A DNA stretch of 42,478 nt from a virus. Position numbers: made by a program. Where the stretch lies: positions 1-42,478 of IMG/VR virus record IMGVR_UViG_3300039055_000105. One strand, 5' to 3'. Below are positions 3,001-6,000 of the stretch, one piece after another; within the stretch, counting starts at the first letter, position 1, and every line of letters begins with the position of its first letter.

Positions 3001-6000
3001 TGATCTTTTTATTTTTCTCTTCATGTACTTGCTCATTAGACTTAATCTCATCTGGGTTACTCCATCTAAGAGTAATAGTATGAGTCTTATCTATCTTAGT
3101 CTGTACAGCTTGTAAAGAAGCGTGCTGTAAGGCTCTTAGCTCTTTAGCGTACTTAAGACCTTCTTCCCAGGTTTCAGCATTGAGGAGAGCTCTTTCAAGG
3201 AATTTGCGGGAGTCAGTGCCGAAGTAGTCCCTGTCAGCCTCAGTAATCTTTTCACGGCTTACTTTCTTGGGCCTGCCTTTGGGGTTGCCCGACTTACCAG
3301 GTTTAAATAAATGGTCTTTCTCTGCGGTCATATAAATTAACCTCTTGGTTATACTATCTGTTAATTTCAAAAAATAAAATTTCGTGGGTGGACTGTTCCC
3401 CCATCTCGCACACACACAGGGGGGAGGCACCCCTATAAAGCTCTATATAGTACGAGAGTATAGTAAGAAGTAGGTAACGAAGAAAGCCCTTAAGCCCCTA
3501 AGGCATTAAAGCCTATGAACTCTAGGCATACTTACCCGTGTCGTCTGTTGGTTAAAAGTGGTAGTAAAACTCTCTTAGCTTATTAGTAATAAATAACGAA
3601 GAAGGAATAAGAGTAGTGTAAACAGTTATTAAGCAGTAGGTTATTAGTTATTAAGTATATTAGTTCAGATAAAAGTTTATTTAATTATCTTAGCTTATAG
3701 TTAATAGCTGTTATTTAGCTCACTGTCATCAATGTATAACTGTTATAAGCCGTTAGAGCGAAGTAGCTAAGTGCTACCTCACTTAATAAGAGGTTATTAA
3801 CAAGACCTTTTTGGTCAATTGATTTGCACTATTTTACTGTTATTAACACTTTACACGTTTAGGGTAATTATGTTATACTAATTTAGTATAGATATAACCA
3901 TTAAGCTATGAGGTATTTGCATATGTACAGCATCATTTACTCTATTAAGAGTATAACAGCCTTTCGCCCTAAAGGACCTAAGCAAGGATTTGTAAGCCCA
4001 AAGGGATTAATTGAGCCTACTAAGAAAGTAGAGAAGGTGAAAAGAAAGGACGATAAAACATCTCTAGCCACTATTGACTTTGACCTAGCTATAAGTAAAC
4101 TACCTGAGGATATTCTCGAGAGATATTCTACTAATACTATTAAGATATTCATAGCTATTAGAAAGGGCCTAAAGCCTCCTCTCACTCTAGTTAAGTACTT
4201 GACAGTACAAGGAAGAGAATATAAGCACACAGGGACGTATAGATGCTTCTGTGGTAACTTATTCGAGGCTAATGTATACAATGTATCACGAGGAAATACT
4301 AAGAGCTGTGGGTGCTTTAAAAGCTTTATACAGGCTACTAGAAAACATGGTAGAAGAACTAAGGCTGATAAGGATAAAGACCCTCTTAAGCCTACATCTA
4401 CTAATCCTACTAAGCAAGCTTGGTTAGATCTAGATAAAGATGATGTAGTACCAGCTTGGCTAAGCTATGGAGATTTCTTCGAGGATATGTATATTATACC
4501 TTCTCCTTATGATTGGTATATTGAGAAGAAAGATCCTTTAAAGCCTCATGGACCTTCTAACTCTTACTGGAAGCGTAAAGAACCTTTAAAGAGATTAGCT
4601 GCTTCTTTATATGATTTAATATTATCTAATAAAGTATGTAATAAACCTAGTAGTAGAGATATTTAATAATATATTTATTTTATCTACTCTCTTAAGATAA
4701 TAAGCACTAACGAGGGCTTCGCCCTCTACAGAATAAGCTAAAAGCTTAAGAGGTGTGTTATATATTTATCTCGCAGCAACCTAGGTTTAGTATAACATGT
4801 ATTGGATTATTTGTCAAGTTTTTAAACACCTAAAATAAATATTTACGATTTACCCTTGACATTTATCTCAATCGTACTATCTTATATAGTATAGAGGAGG
4901 TGGTGAAGATGTTTAGAGTAGAGAGAGCGGCACAGAAACTATCCTCTGAGTTCTATCTTACCTGGCTAATACAGAATGGCACAGAAGAGGAGATAGAGAG
5001 GATACACGAGATAGTTCTAGAAAGCCACGCAGTATATTATATAGAAGATATAAACGGCCTAGAGTTTGTGAGGAGATATTAAAATGAATAATAGGGATAA
5101 TGTTATAGACATTAGTAAGATTTTACTAGACAAGGTGTTAGAAGATTGGTATAATGAAGTTATAGAGGTAGAAAGAGAAGGTATTAAGGTTTATAAAACA
5201 GAACCACAAATCATTTCTTTCGAACTATTCGAAGCATACAGACAACGAAAAGAACTTGAGAGATTAATAGATAAATGGGAAAAGGAGCTTAACAATGATT
5301 ACGTGGACTGAATTCTTAACTAAGACAGCATTAACTATAGCAGCTTTATTCGTACTAGTAAATTTACCTTTACTTATAAGCTACTTATTTAAATAAAGGA
5401 GATATTATCATGAGACGCCTAACAGACTTTCAAATAGCAGCATTATCAGCAGTAGCTAGTTTTGTAGGAGGTTTTGGAGCCTCAGCAGTAGATATCTGGT
5501 GGGCTTTTCAGGAAATGGCTATCAATGCACATAGCCACCTACCTATAGTTATAAAAGGCTTAGGATTTACCTTGATTTTCTTCGTTCTATCTGCTATACT
5601 CTTAGTATGGTCTTTAATACGACATAGAGATACGGATAAGAAGCCAGTACAATCTAAGGACGATATTGATTATAGGATATCCCTGGCATTTAGAAAAGCA
5701 GGTATATGTAAATTAAAAGCTAAGGAAAAGGCAGTACGGAACAAATTTAAATAAAGGAGATATTATCATGAGACGCCTAACAGACTTTCAACGAAATATT
5801 CTCAGAGATATTAAGGAGAGCGCCGAAAATTTATCTGAGTCTGCTGTCTTCGATCTAAAGCAGCGTATTGAAGAGATAAAAGGGTTAGTAGATGCTATGG
5901 AAGATGTAGTAGACAATTCAGATATATTGGCTAGTTACACAGTACGTGAAAGACTACATACTCTCACCAGCAAAGCTACTTTAGAGCTGGAAGAGCTTCA

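What the first reader, a model, noticed from the sequence alone, without database searches (positions are those of the whole stretch)
4707..4817. Two-copy ~100-nt intergenic element: consensus promoter head plus G/C hairpin tail, aimed antisense at the gene it follows (copy A)
- **Sequences:** On the minus strand, 4817->4707 reads ttgacaaataatccaatacatgttatactaaacctaggtt...taaatatataaca...ctgtagagggcgaagccctcgttag. On the plus strand, 38853..38951 reads ttgacaaataattcaatccgtgttatcctatccttaggtt...taaatataaca...ttgtagggggcgaagcccccgttag.
- **Similarity:** By hand alignment the first 40 nt are 33/40 identical and the last 27 nt are 25/27.
- **Structure:** Each copy starts with TTGACA-N17-TAT(A/C)CT preceded by TG (extended -10). 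Each ends ~55-70 nt downstream of the predicted start site in a 6-bp G/C stem with a GAA loop.
- **Placement:** Copy A lies just after the stop of the first early gene (3908..4666, +) and fires back into it. Copy B does the same to the major capsid gene on the other arm.
- **Uniqueness:** I found no other cross-arm repeat of this length by eye.
- **Interpretations:** It could be a small family of ~60-75-nt cis-antisense RNAs or convergent-transcription brakes acting on an early regulator and the most abundant late gene. Alternatively it is a conserved 3'-end processing/terminator module whose promoter likeness is incidental.
Basis: partly seen in the sequence, partly recalled or inferred. Interest (0 to 1): 0.72.

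Follow-up and report, generated by a model that had tools for sequence, protein, structure and literature searches.

The report
Duplicated backward-facing promoter-hairpin cassette
An uncultured marine phage carries two ~100-base copies of a strong bacterial-type promoter that points backwards at the gene it follows (an early gene and the capsid gene); related phages keep the promoter signals, so it is probably a real regulatory device of a known general kind (antisense or convergent transcription), but no RNA data exist.

Summary
The repeat is real. Copy A (4817->4707, minus) and copy B (38853..38951, plus) align at E=3e-11, and the best of 500 shuffles scored far lower. They form the longest inverted repeat in a circularly assembled ~42.4-kb marine podovirus that has no RNA polymerase of its own. 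Both copies are antisense to the local genes.

I found three further independent copies in relatives: two at the same post-early-gene site and one after the capsid gene. All five keep TTGACA, a 17-nt spacing, a TAnnnT -10, an upstream A-tract and a TTAAATATA(A)CA box 19-21 nt after the -10. The spacer has diverged. The promoter likeness is therefore selected, not incidental.

The G/C hairpin occurs only in the window's lineage. It has no U-tract. It sits where relatives carry a canonical capsid terminator.

No conserved RNA fold, Rfam match or trans target was found.

Best reading: an early-class sigma70 promoter cassette firing against traffic. It would give short cis-antisense transcripts and/or convergent-transcription attenuation at two operon boundaries, working like lambda pO/OOP and built like a PeSL cassette with the promoter inverted. 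Function is inferred only. Interest is moderate.

The parts
4707..4830 (-). Copy A of the cassette (A-tract, promoter, box, hairpin), antisense to the flanking plus-strand genes
4818..4830 (-). A-rich tract directly upstream of the -35 (GGTGTTTAAAAAC), resembling a UP element; an A-tract is kept in all five copies
   Evidence: invariant block TTTGTCAAGT.TTT on the sense strand
4812..4817 (-). -35 hexamer TTGACA of antisense promoter Pas-A
   Evidence: invariant in 5/5 copies
4789..4797 (-). TGt + TATACT extended -10 of Pas-A; predicted start is the A at 4782
   Evidence: The 12-mer ATGTTATACTAA is shared with the first early promoter at 3870-3881
4756..4768 (-). Box TAAATATATAACA, 20 nt after the -10; on the plus strand it reads TGTTATATATTTA
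4712..4726 (.). G/C hairpin GAGGGC-GAA-GCCCTC with no U-tract on either strand, beginning 45 nt after the stop of gene 3908-4666
   Evidence: not called as a terminator
4856..4899 (+). Sense promoter TTGACA-16-TATCTTATATAGTATAG, back-to-back with Pas-A, driving gene 4900 onward; the divergent pair is kept in L005 and L042
38840..38951 (+). Copy B of the cassette; fills the only sizeable intergenic gap of the late arm (38829-38956), antisense to the capsid and tail genes
38853..38858 (+). -35 hexamer TTGACA of Pas-B
38873..38881 (+). TGt + TATCCT extended -10 of Pas-B; predicted start is the A at 38888
38900..38911 (+). Box TTAAATATAACA, 19 nt after the -10; on the minus (sense) strand it reads TGtTATATT, a perfect extended -10 facing Pas-B
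38932..38946 (.). G/C hairpin GGGGGC-GAA-GCCCCC with no U-tract, 10 nt from the capsid stop codon; it sits where relatives have the capsid terminator hairpin
   Evidence: not called as a terminator

Best explanation
**What it is.** Each copy is a portable intergenic cassette. Its core is a genuine host-sigma70 promoter (A-tract, TTGACA, 17 nt, TGn-TAnnnT) of the same class as the phage's early and middle promoters. It is installed against the direction of local transcription, just downstream of a gene.

**Shown:**
- The sequence, the duplication and the antisense orientation.
- Conservation of the promoter signals and of a box at about +13 to +25 in five independent copies at two genomic sites.
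- The phage has no recognisable RNA polymerase of its own.

**Inferred:**
- Host RNA polymerase fires from these promoters early in infection. It makes transcripts complementary to the 3'-untranslated or intercistronic part of the sense mRNA.
- In the window's lineage these transcripts meet a G/C hairpin 59-71 nt downstream, just short of the upstream gene's stop codon.
- Polymerase occupying and leaving this strong promoter collides with or blocks sense polymerases after they finish the upstream gene.
- The antisense RNA may also pair with the sense RNA and trigger RNase III-type cleavage.
- The net effect is attenuation or insulation at two operon boundaries: first early gene | rest of the early arm, and capsid | tail genes. 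After the capsid gene, relatives do this job with an ordinary hairpin-plus-T-run terminator.
- The two copies in this genome have been homogenised at head and tail by gene conversion or recent copying.
For: **The repeat is far above chance**.

**Promoter signature.**
- -35 identity across copies is 100%, and -10 positions T1, A2 and T6 are invariant, against 50% pairwise spacer identity.
- Hexamers versus spacer: A vs L005 12/12 vs 6/17 (p=4e-4); B vs L004 11/12 vs 9/17; L004 vs L005 10/12 vs 6/17.
- The scan tool scores window A 11/12 with TG, window B 10/12 with TG, L005 11/12 and L042 11/12.
- In the three-way alignment of the orthologous site, the invariant blocks coincide with the box, the -10, the -35 plus A-tract, and the divergent sense promoter.

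**Genome context.**
- TTGACA-17-TAnnnT occurs 7 times against 0.53 in shuffles.
- Five of these lie on the sense strand of the replication/early arm. Two (10448, 22148) sit in intergenic DNA in front of genes.
- None is sense in the late arm. The remaining two are these antisense copies.
- No phage RNA polymerase or sigma factor was recognised.

**Terminators.**
- Relatives lacking the cassette have a hairpin plus T-run after the capsid gene (L011, L012, L014, L016, L035).
- The two lineages with the cassette at that site lack a T-run terminator.
- The window does use a canonical bidirectional terminator at 23314-23353.

**Hairpin.** There is one compensatory stem change between the copies, and the fold is well below shuffles.

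**Recent conservation.** There are no substitutions in the 233-nt and 128-nt intergenic regions against a 97-98% identical strain, while gene 3908-4666 differs at 6.2% of sites.

**Precedent.** Lambda's convergent pO promoter lowers pR transcription (PMC3985674 abstract). OOP antisense RNA acts on cII mRNA through RNase III (Krinke & Wulff 1987 and 1990, as cited in PMC5869508).
Against: - No transcript data exist. The host is unknown and the phage is uncultured.
- The hairpin has no U-tract, so the RNA 3' end is undefined.
- The hairpin is missing or different in L042, L004 and L005.
- There is no conserved RNA secondary structure.
- The L004 -10 (TACCCT) falls below the scan threshold.
- Most relatives lack the cassette altogether, so it is dispensable.
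- The zero-substitution block against L008 runs from 4531 to 5136 and may simply be a recombination tract.
- On the sense strand the box reads as an extended -10 (TGtTATATT in B and L004). Part of the conservation could therefore serve a sense promoter.
- The link between cassette presence and absence of a T-run terminator rests on only two lineages.
Confidence: 0.45

Rival explanations
1. Trans-acting small RNA. The strong promoter makes an abundant sRNA whose conserved 5' part (UUCCAAAGGUUAAAUAUAACAG) is a seed that pairs with host or phage mRNAs. The antisense placement would be incidental.
For: It has the usual sRNA layout: a strong promoter, a conserved 5' region at a fixed distance and a variable 3' hairpin. 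The 5' box is near-identical in B, L004 and L005.
Against: RNAduplex against 54 phage translation-initiation regions gives best energies inside the shuffled-sRNA range. There is no U-tail terminator, no conserved fold and no Rfam match. Copy A and L042 carry a different 5' sequence before the box. All five copies are antisense to their neighbours, which a trans-acting RNA would not need. Host targets could not be tested.
Confidence: 0.12
2. Sense-strand module only. The hairpin is the 3' stabiliser or attenuator of the upstream mRNA, and the box (TGtTATATT on the sense strand) is an extended -10 promoter that restarts transcription for the downstream genes. The TTGACA/TATACT signals on the other strand would be non-functional.
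For: Hairpin B sits where relatives have the capsid terminator. The box is a perfect extended -10 on the sense strand in both capsid-site copies (B, L004). TGTTAT is enriched in intergenic DNA, 9 of 28 occurrences in 4% of the genome (p=1e-6). Stem-loop followed by promoter is the order seen in PeSL cassettes.
Against: It does not explain the invariant TTGACA at exactly 17 nt from a TAnnnT hexamer plus an A-tract in 5/5 copies with a diverged spacer. The sense -10 reading is degraded in copy A (TATATA), in L005 (TTATTT) and in L042 (TG misplaced by one base). The A site already has its own sense promoter 40-60 nt further on.
Confidence: 0.12
3. Face-to-face promoter switch. Pas and the sense extended -10 are both active. 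Their start sites lie about 9 nt apart and convergent, so polymerase binding is mutually exclusive. The pair would set the expression level or timing of the downstream genes, as converging promoters do in coliphage 186 and P2 (own knowledge).
For: The distance between the Pas -10 and the box is fixed at 19-21 nt in all five copies. Each window copy carries TGTTAT on both strands, facing inward.
Against: The evidence against the sense -10 in A-site copies applies here too. No regulator that would flip such a switch was identified.
Confidence: 0.1
4. DNA-level element. The cassette would be a recombination hotspot or mobile regulatory cassette (PeSL-like), a protein-binding site, or a transcription-primed secondary replication origin for the T7-like replisome. 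GCGAAGC would act as a stable DNA mini-hairpin.
For: Distribution is sporadic, at two alternative sites in different lineages. Within-genome similarity is mosaic: head A-B 25/29 against 16-21/29 for other pairs, yet the middle of B is closer to L004 and L005 than to A. The phage has a T7-type replisome and no phage RNA polymerase. A strong promoter is followed by an AT-rich stretch. d(GCGAAGC) is known as an unusually stable DNA hairpin (own knowledge).
Against: There are only two copies and no terminal inverted repeats or target duplications. No integrase or invertase was recognised. GC-skew extremes lie at the arm boundaries (3417, 23434), not at the cassettes. The GCGAAGC hairpin is absent from three of five copies. 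Recombination activity would not by itself keep promoter hexamers and spacing intact.
Confidence: 0.13
5. Lambda PR'-like late promoter, for copy A only. A constitutive promoter would make a short terminated RNA until a Q-like factor lets it read through gene 3908-4666 (antisense) into the terminase-to-capsid operon, which lies 1.35 kb downstream on the same strand.
For: Pas-A is the only consensus promoter on the minus strand upstream of the late operon. It has a -10-like AT box in the initially transcribed region and a hairpin 71 nt downstream. The same geometry is seen in L005.
Against: Copy B and L004 have the same architecture but point against the late operon. No Q-like protein was recognised. 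The route runs 1.35 kb through an opposing gene and its promoter.
Confidence: 0.05

Closest known systems
Lambda pO promoter / OOP antisense RNA
   Same: A constitutive host-type promoter placed just downstream of a gene and firing back at it. It yields a short non-coding RNA. Its convergent activity lowers sense transcription (PMC3985674), and the RNA acts through RNase III (Krinke & Wulff, cited in PMC5869508).
   Different: There is no sequence or Rfam similarity. Here the hairpin lacks a U-tract and lies before the stop codon, so overlap with the coding region is not assured. There are two copies per genome, in a lytic-type T7-like podovirus rather than a temperate lambdoid phage.
PeSL (promoter-early stem-loop) cassettes of T4-type phages (PMC2839356, PMC4122927)
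   Same: A ~100-bp conserved intergenic composite: a near-consensus sigma70 promoter with an AT-rich upstream tract plus a G/C stem-loop. It is repeated within a genome and shows signs of recombination between copies.
   Different: PeSL promoters are sense-oriented, with the Shine-Dalgarno sequence and start codon of the next gene at their 3' end. They occur in dozens of copies in hyperplastic regions flanking ORFans. Here the promoter is inverted and faces the stem-loop, and there are only two copies.
Partial terminator or stem-loop after the major capsid gene (T7 T-phi type; own knowledge)
   Same: A stable hairpin follows the capsid stop codon. Relatives of this phage have a classic hairpin plus T-run at the same place.
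   Different: The window's hairpin has no T-run and comes packaged with an opposing promoter. The same package is also present after an early gene.
Face-to-face promoters of coliphage 186 (pR/pL) and P2 (Pe/Pc), acting by transcriptional interference (own knowledge; general treatment in PMC5001618)
   Same: Convergent promoters close together, where the stronger one interferes with the weaker.
   Different: In those phages both promoters drive protein-coding operons and are controlled by known repressors. Here the antisense promoter has no coding target and no regulator is known.

Membership tests
sigma70-type promoter (extended -10 class) | -35 TTGACA, 17±1 nt spacer and -10 TAnnnT, with an optional TGn and an upstream A-tract | tested here: met
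   Searches give 10-11 of 12 matches. TGn is present in A, B and L004, and the A-tract in 5/5 copies. The L004 -10 matches only 3/6 and is not called.
sigma70-type promoter (extended -10 class) | Initiates transcription with the host holoenzyme | not testable with these tools
   There are no RNA data and the host is unknown.
Lambda OOP-type cis-antisense RNA | Promoter downstream of the target gene, in antisense orientation | tested here: met
   the same holds in L004, L005 and L042.
Lambda OOP-type cis-antisense RNA | Transcript overlaps the 3' end of the target coding region | tested here: inconclusive
   The hairpins end 10 nt (B) and 45 nt (A) short of the stop codons. Overlap occurs only if the hairpin is read through, and L042 has no hairpin.
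Lambda OOP-type cis-antisense RNA | Ends at an intrinsic terminator (hairpin plus U-run) | tested here: not met
   No U-run follows on either strand, and the hairpins are not called by the terminator scan.
Lambda OOP-type cis-antisense RNA | Sequence or structure homology to OOP or any curated RNA family | tested here: not met
   Rfam at gathering thresholds gives 0 hits. In E-value mode the only hits are far below gathering scores.
PeSL cassette | Near-consensus sigma70 promoter plus adjacent G/C stem-loop in a conserved ~100-bp intergenic unit | tested here: met
   for the window lineage only.
PeSL cassette | Promoter in sense orientation, leading into the SD and start codon of the downstream gene | tested here: not met
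   The promoter is antisense in all five copies. PeSL layout is taken from PMC2839356.
PeSL cassette | Many copies clustered in hyperplastic regions flanking ORFans | tested here: not met
   nhmmer and the repeat finder find two copies per genome.
Intrinsic (Rho-independent) terminator | G/C-rich hairpin immediately followed by a U-run | tested here: not met
   The hairpin is present. The tails are GUUAGNNN on the antisense strand and CUACANNN on the sense strand. Compare the canonical terminator at 23314-23353.
MITE or other small mobile element | Terminal inverted repeats and target-site duplication | tested here: not met
   The ends (TTGACAAATAAT... and ...CGTTAG) are not inverted repeats, and there are no flanking duplications.
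Structured non-coding RNA | Conserved secondary structure with covariation | tested here: not met
   RNAalifold on five copies predicts 0 pairs. Single-sequence z-scores range from -1.9 to +0.7. The only covariation is one pair in the lineage-specific hairpin.

The most novel reading that the evidence does not exclude
The cassette would be a self-contained, portable 'collision terminator'. A consensus promoter fires against traffic, and a U-less hairpin confines the antisense polymerase to a 60-70-nt zone just past a stop codon. This would functionally replace the ordinary intrinsic terminator after the capsid gene, and it would spread between operon boundaries by gene conversion. Because it is an early-class promoter in a phage that relies wholly on host polymerase, it would brake only while sigma70 transcription is on, which would give the late operon a built-in timer.
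Probability: 0.15. Interest if true: 0.65.

Novelty: new member of a known kind. Interest (0 to 1): 0.4.

Why it matters
Phages that lack their own RNA polymerase must time and dose about 40 kb of genes using host polymerase alone. How uncultured marine podoviruses do this is essentially unknown.

A conserved promoter deliberately installed against the flow of transcription is a concrete hypothesis for how they set capsid-to-tail stoichiometry and insulate an immediate-early gene. It sits at the two places where expression level should drop, and at one of them relatives use a normal terminator instead. The hypothesis can be tested with synthetic DNA.

The cassette would also add a non-T4 example of small regulatory units that move or homogenise within phage genomes. 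If instead it is only a by-product promoter, it is one more cis-antisense start site of the kind seen in many transcriptomes.

Tried and rejected
- **Rfam and tRNA.** Rfam in gathering and E-value modes and a tRNA/tmRNA scan gave nothing credible.
- **IMG/VR pattern scans.** Exact-pattern scans with the head and with the tail gave 0 hits. A gapped promoter+box pattern found only the L004 contig. A relaxed pattern gave more than 119 hits, none confirmed as a credible copy by nhmmer, and no hit locus carried the window's structural gene set (only scattered matches to widespread phage genes). I treated these as chance.
- **JGI metagenome scan.** 13 hits with no protein similarity to the window; chance-like.
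- **GTDB genome scan with the box.** One Bacteroidota hit without a promoter, so no host clue.
- **Cultured-phage database.** blastn of both intergenic regions found no match.
- **Consensus RNA structure.** None across five copies.
- **Trans targets.** None stood out among phage ribosome-binding regions.
- **Small ORFs.** No start codon or ORF was seen by eye in the antisense transcripts of the two window copies.
- **Origin of replication.** GC-skew extremes lie at the arm boundaries, not at the cassettes.
- **Invertible segment between the two inverted copies.** Rejected. The copies are only 73% identical, no recombinase was recognised, and inversion would split the head-tail operon.
- **Function of gene 3908-4666.** There is only a weak PHROG 'HNH' hit and no Pfam match, although 1414 remote homologues share a CxC...CGC core.
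- **Antisense promoter after the capsid gene as a general design.** Rejected. The two distant database relatives I inspected, a cultured pelagiphage and a spring-water metagenomic podovirus, have 6-19 nt of intergenic space there.
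Full report
**What the window is.** The first and last 99 bases are identical, so this is a circularly closed assembly of about 42,379 bp.

- It encodes a T7-like structural module: portal PF12236, scaffold/protease, major capsid PF19821, tail tubular proteins, internal virion proteins and terminase.
- It encodes a T7-like replisome: family-A DNA polymerase, primase-helicase, gp2.5-like SSB and endonuclease I. It also encodes ribonucleotide reductase, PhoH, ClpP, thymidylate synthase and peptide deformylase.
- No RNA polymerase, sigma factor, integrase or invertase was recognised.
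- Genes form two arms. The plus arm runs 3908-23313. The minus arm starts near 3430, crosses the assembly junction and ends at 23354. The arms diverge at 3431-3907 and converge on a textbook bidirectional terminator at 23314-23353. GC skew simply tracks the arms.
- Near-identical contigs come from Tara Oceans and other marine metagenomes.
- The closest cultured phages (HTVC010P-type pelagiphages, some Ralstonia and Yersinia podoviruses) share 30% or less capsid identity.
- The host is unknown. Strong Shine-Dalgarno sites and TTGACA-type promoters point to a bacterium with sigma70-type promoters and Shine-Dalgarno-led translation, perhaps a proteobacterium.

- Both sequences read as quoted.
- The head pair (44 nt, 82%) is the longest inverted repeat in the genome, and the tail pair is 24 nt at 92%.
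- blastn joins them into one 115-nt alignment (E=3e-11, 57 bits). The best of 500 dinucleotide shuffles scored 34.6 bits.
- The promoter scan scores copy A 11/12 with TG and copy B 10/12 with TG.
- The 6-bp G/C stems with a GAA loop fold as predicted, with one compensatory change between the copies.
- One small correction: tail identity is 22/24, not 25/27.

**Orientation.** Copy A is on the minus strand inside the plus arm. Copy B is on the plus strand inside the minus arm. Relative to local transcription the two are in the same orientation. Reading along the sense strand one meets the stop codon, the hairpin, the box, the reverse-complemented -10 and -35, and then the next gene.

**Relatives.** I fetched about 20 related contigs through capsid and gene-3908 homologues. 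I searched them with an nhmmer profile of the element. Apart from near-identical strains (L008, L009, L045-L048), three independent copies turned up.

| Copy | Site | Relatedness to the window |
|---|---|---|
| L005 | after the orthologue of gene 3908-4666 (46% identical) | capsid 88% identical |
| L042 / L043 | same site | gene 56% identical |
| L004 | after the capsid gene | capsid 70% identical |

Every other relative lacks the element within 10 kb either side of the capsid gene.

**What is conserved.**

- All five copies keep TTGACA, exactly 17 nt, then TA(T/C)(A/C)CT, an A-rich tract just upstream of the -35, and a box TTAAATATA(A)CA starting 19-21 nt after the -10.
- The spacer between the hexamers has diverged to about 50% pairwise identity. 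The orthologous pair A / L005 has hexamers 12/12 and spacer 6/17 (Fisher p=4e-4).
- In a three-way alignment of the orthologous intergenic region, the invariant blocks fall on the box, the -10, the -35 plus A-tract, and the -35 and -10 of a divergent sense promoter. Little else is invariant.
- Conserved hexamers at fixed spacing across a drifting spacer are what selection on a promoter produces. No sense-strand RNA or terminator model predicts that pattern.
- One caveat: the L004 -10 (TACCCT) keeps only T1, A2 and T6 and is not called by the scan.

**Promoter class.**

- TTGACA-17-TAnnnT occurs seven times in the genome, against 0.53 expected from shuffles.
- Five occurrences lie on the sense strand of the plus arm. 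Two of these (10448, 22148) sit in intergenic DNA directly in front of genes.
- None is sense in the late arm.
- The other two are the antisense copies.
- The extended -10 of copy A (ATGTTATACTAA) is identical to that of the first early promoter at 3870-3881.
- The antisense promoters therefore belong to the phage's early sigma70 class. Copy B is the only such promoter inside the late arm, and it points the wrong way.

**The hairpin is a separate, lineage-specific part.**

- L042 has no G/C hairpin. L005 has a different one (CTAGGGA...TCCCTAG) overlapping the stop codon. L004 pairs sequences flanking the box.
- In the window the hairpin has no U-run on either strand and is not called as a terminator. 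The genome clearly uses hairpin-plus-T-run terminators elsewhere.
- After the capsid gene, L011, L012, L014, L016 and L035 have classic hairpin-plus-T-run terminators. L005 and L007 have a hairpin with a weak tail.
- Hairpin B therefore occupies the place of the capsid terminator. The two lineages that carry the antisense promoter there lack a T-run terminator. This suggests functional replacement, but it rests on two lineages only.

**Within-genome similarity is mosaic.**

- Heads A and B share 25/29 positions, against 16-21/29 for all other pairs.
- The hairpin tail is shared only by A and B.
- The middle of B is closer to L004 and L005 (0.74-0.77) than to A (0.62), and the middle of A is closest to L042.
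- I read this as two old copies partly homogenised by gene conversion. It could also reflect recent copying followed by replacement of the middle.

**Negative results that constrain function.**

- No Rfam family matches.
- No tRNA or tmRNA genes were found.
- No consensus RNA structure exists.
- No ORF was seen by eye in the two window antisense transcripts.
- No outlier target appears among phage ribosome-binding regions.
- No copies were confirmed outside this phage clade in IMG/VR, JGI metagenomes, GTDB genomes or cultured phages.
- There are no transposon-like ends.
- Against a 97-98% identical strain, both intergenic regions carry no substitutions, while gene 3908-4666 differs at 6.2% of sites. 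However, the identical block runs 4531-5136 and may be a recombination tract.

**An ambiguity.**

- On the sense strand the box reads TGtTATATT, a perfect extended -10, in both capsid-site copies. TGTTAT is strongly enriched in intergenic DNA.
- A sense promoter facing the antisense one, with start sites about 9 nt apart, is therefore possible at the capsid site.
- In the three copies at the early-gene site this sense reading is degraded. A separate sense promoter follows anyway.

**Most likely mechanism.**

- *Shown:* a conserved sigma70-type promoter, duplicated, antisense, at two operon boundaries, in a phage dependent on host polymerase.
- *Inferred:* it fires early. It produces transcripts complementary to the intercistronic sense RNA. 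In this lineage those transcripts are probably slowed or ended at the hairpin just short of the upstream stop codon.
- *Inferred:* through polymerase collision or occupancy, and possibly RNase III cleavage of the duplex, it lowers read-through into the downstream genes.
- Lambda gives direct precedent. The convergent pO promoter reduces pR transcription (PMC3985674). OOP RNA acts on cII mRNA via RNase III (Krinke & Wulff, cited in PMC5869508).
- Architecturally the unit resembles the PeSL promoter/stem-loop cassettes of T4-type phages (PMC2839356, PMC4122927), but with the promoter inverted and only two copies.
- It fails defining tests for membership of either family, so I file it as working like lambda pO/OOP, not as a member.
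- My confidence in a functional antisense promoter is about 0.7. My confidence in the attenuator or cis-antisense mechanism as stated is about 0.45.

**Verdict.** This is a real, selected, clade-restricted regulatory cassette and a new example of a known kind of device. Its function is untested and it is dispensable in most relatives. The defined 60-75-nt RNA family is not established, and antisense or convergent promoters in phages are well precedented.

Noticed in passing
window 1-99 and 42380-42478: An exact 99-nt terminal duplication shows that the window is a circularly closed assembly of about 42,379 bp. The portal gene runs across the junction, so the ORF list shows only 479 of about 574-578 codons.
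   Followed up: partly
window 5387-5433 and 5745-5791: A perfect 47-nt direct repeat covers the ribosome-binding site and first 8 codons (MRRLTDFQ) of two adjacent small early genes, 5410-5754 and 5768-6016. The rest of the proteins are only 30% identical. This suggests a shared translation-initiation or N-terminal module, or a recent partial duplication.
   Followed up: partly
window 4856-4899, 10448-10501, 22148-22201, 23033-23091: A second promoter family drives plus-arm genes: TTGACA, 16-17 nt, a -10, then a conserved TATCTTATATAGTA/TATAGTA motif just before the Shine-Dalgarno site. The motif also occurs twice at 3446 and 3459. The role of the TATAGTA part is unknown.
   Followed up: partly
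window 3431-3907: The 477-nt AT-rich divergent region (GC 32%) between the two arms holds the GC-skew minimum (3417). It has four plus-strand TGTTAT motifs (3709, 3741, 3838, 3871) and many ...GTTATTA... repeats. No sigma70-like promoter faces the late (terminase) operon. It is a candidate origin, genome end or late-control region, and the late promoter type is unidentified.
   Followed up: partly
window 23314-23353: A canonical bidirectional intrinsic terminator (AAAAAGAAACCCCC...GGGGGTTTTAT) lies exactly where the two arms converge.
   Followed up: yes
window 3908-4666: The first plus-arm gene has a CxC...SCGC zinc-ribbon-like core (residues ~108-225). It has 1414 remote homologues in the 1.8-billion-protein library, some with the motif repeated up to 11 times, yet no Pfam family and only a weak PHROG 'HNH endonuclease' hit. 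All three close homologues found are followed by the antisense promoter.
   Followed up: partly
L018 (1-4000) versus window; also L016: In the more distant relative L018 (capsid 63% identical), the small genes upstream of the terminase lie on the same strand as the late genes. In the window lineage the whole early/replication arm is inverted relative to the structural arm. A large inversion has therefore occurred within this phage clade.
   Followed up: no
L001-L003 (e.g. L001 3945-3990) and L036 7396-7440: In several relatives the space after the capsid gene holds a tiny ORF encoding a Lys/Gly-rich peptide (MAKKGGKKGGGKKC...), rather than a hairpin or the promoter cassette.
   Followed up: no
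L008 7161-8910: In the Tara strain the portal gene is called as two ORFs (295 + 271 aa). This is either a frameshift or an assembly error. Other strains have an intact gene of 574-578 aa.
   Followed up: no
window 18404-18859: A 151-aa protein matches T7-lysozyme-type amidase families annotated 'endolysin; inhibits RNA polymerase', although the phage has no RNA polymerase of its own. A separate glycoside-hydrolase endolysin (20728-21255) and a holin (23354-23917) are also present.
   Followed up: no
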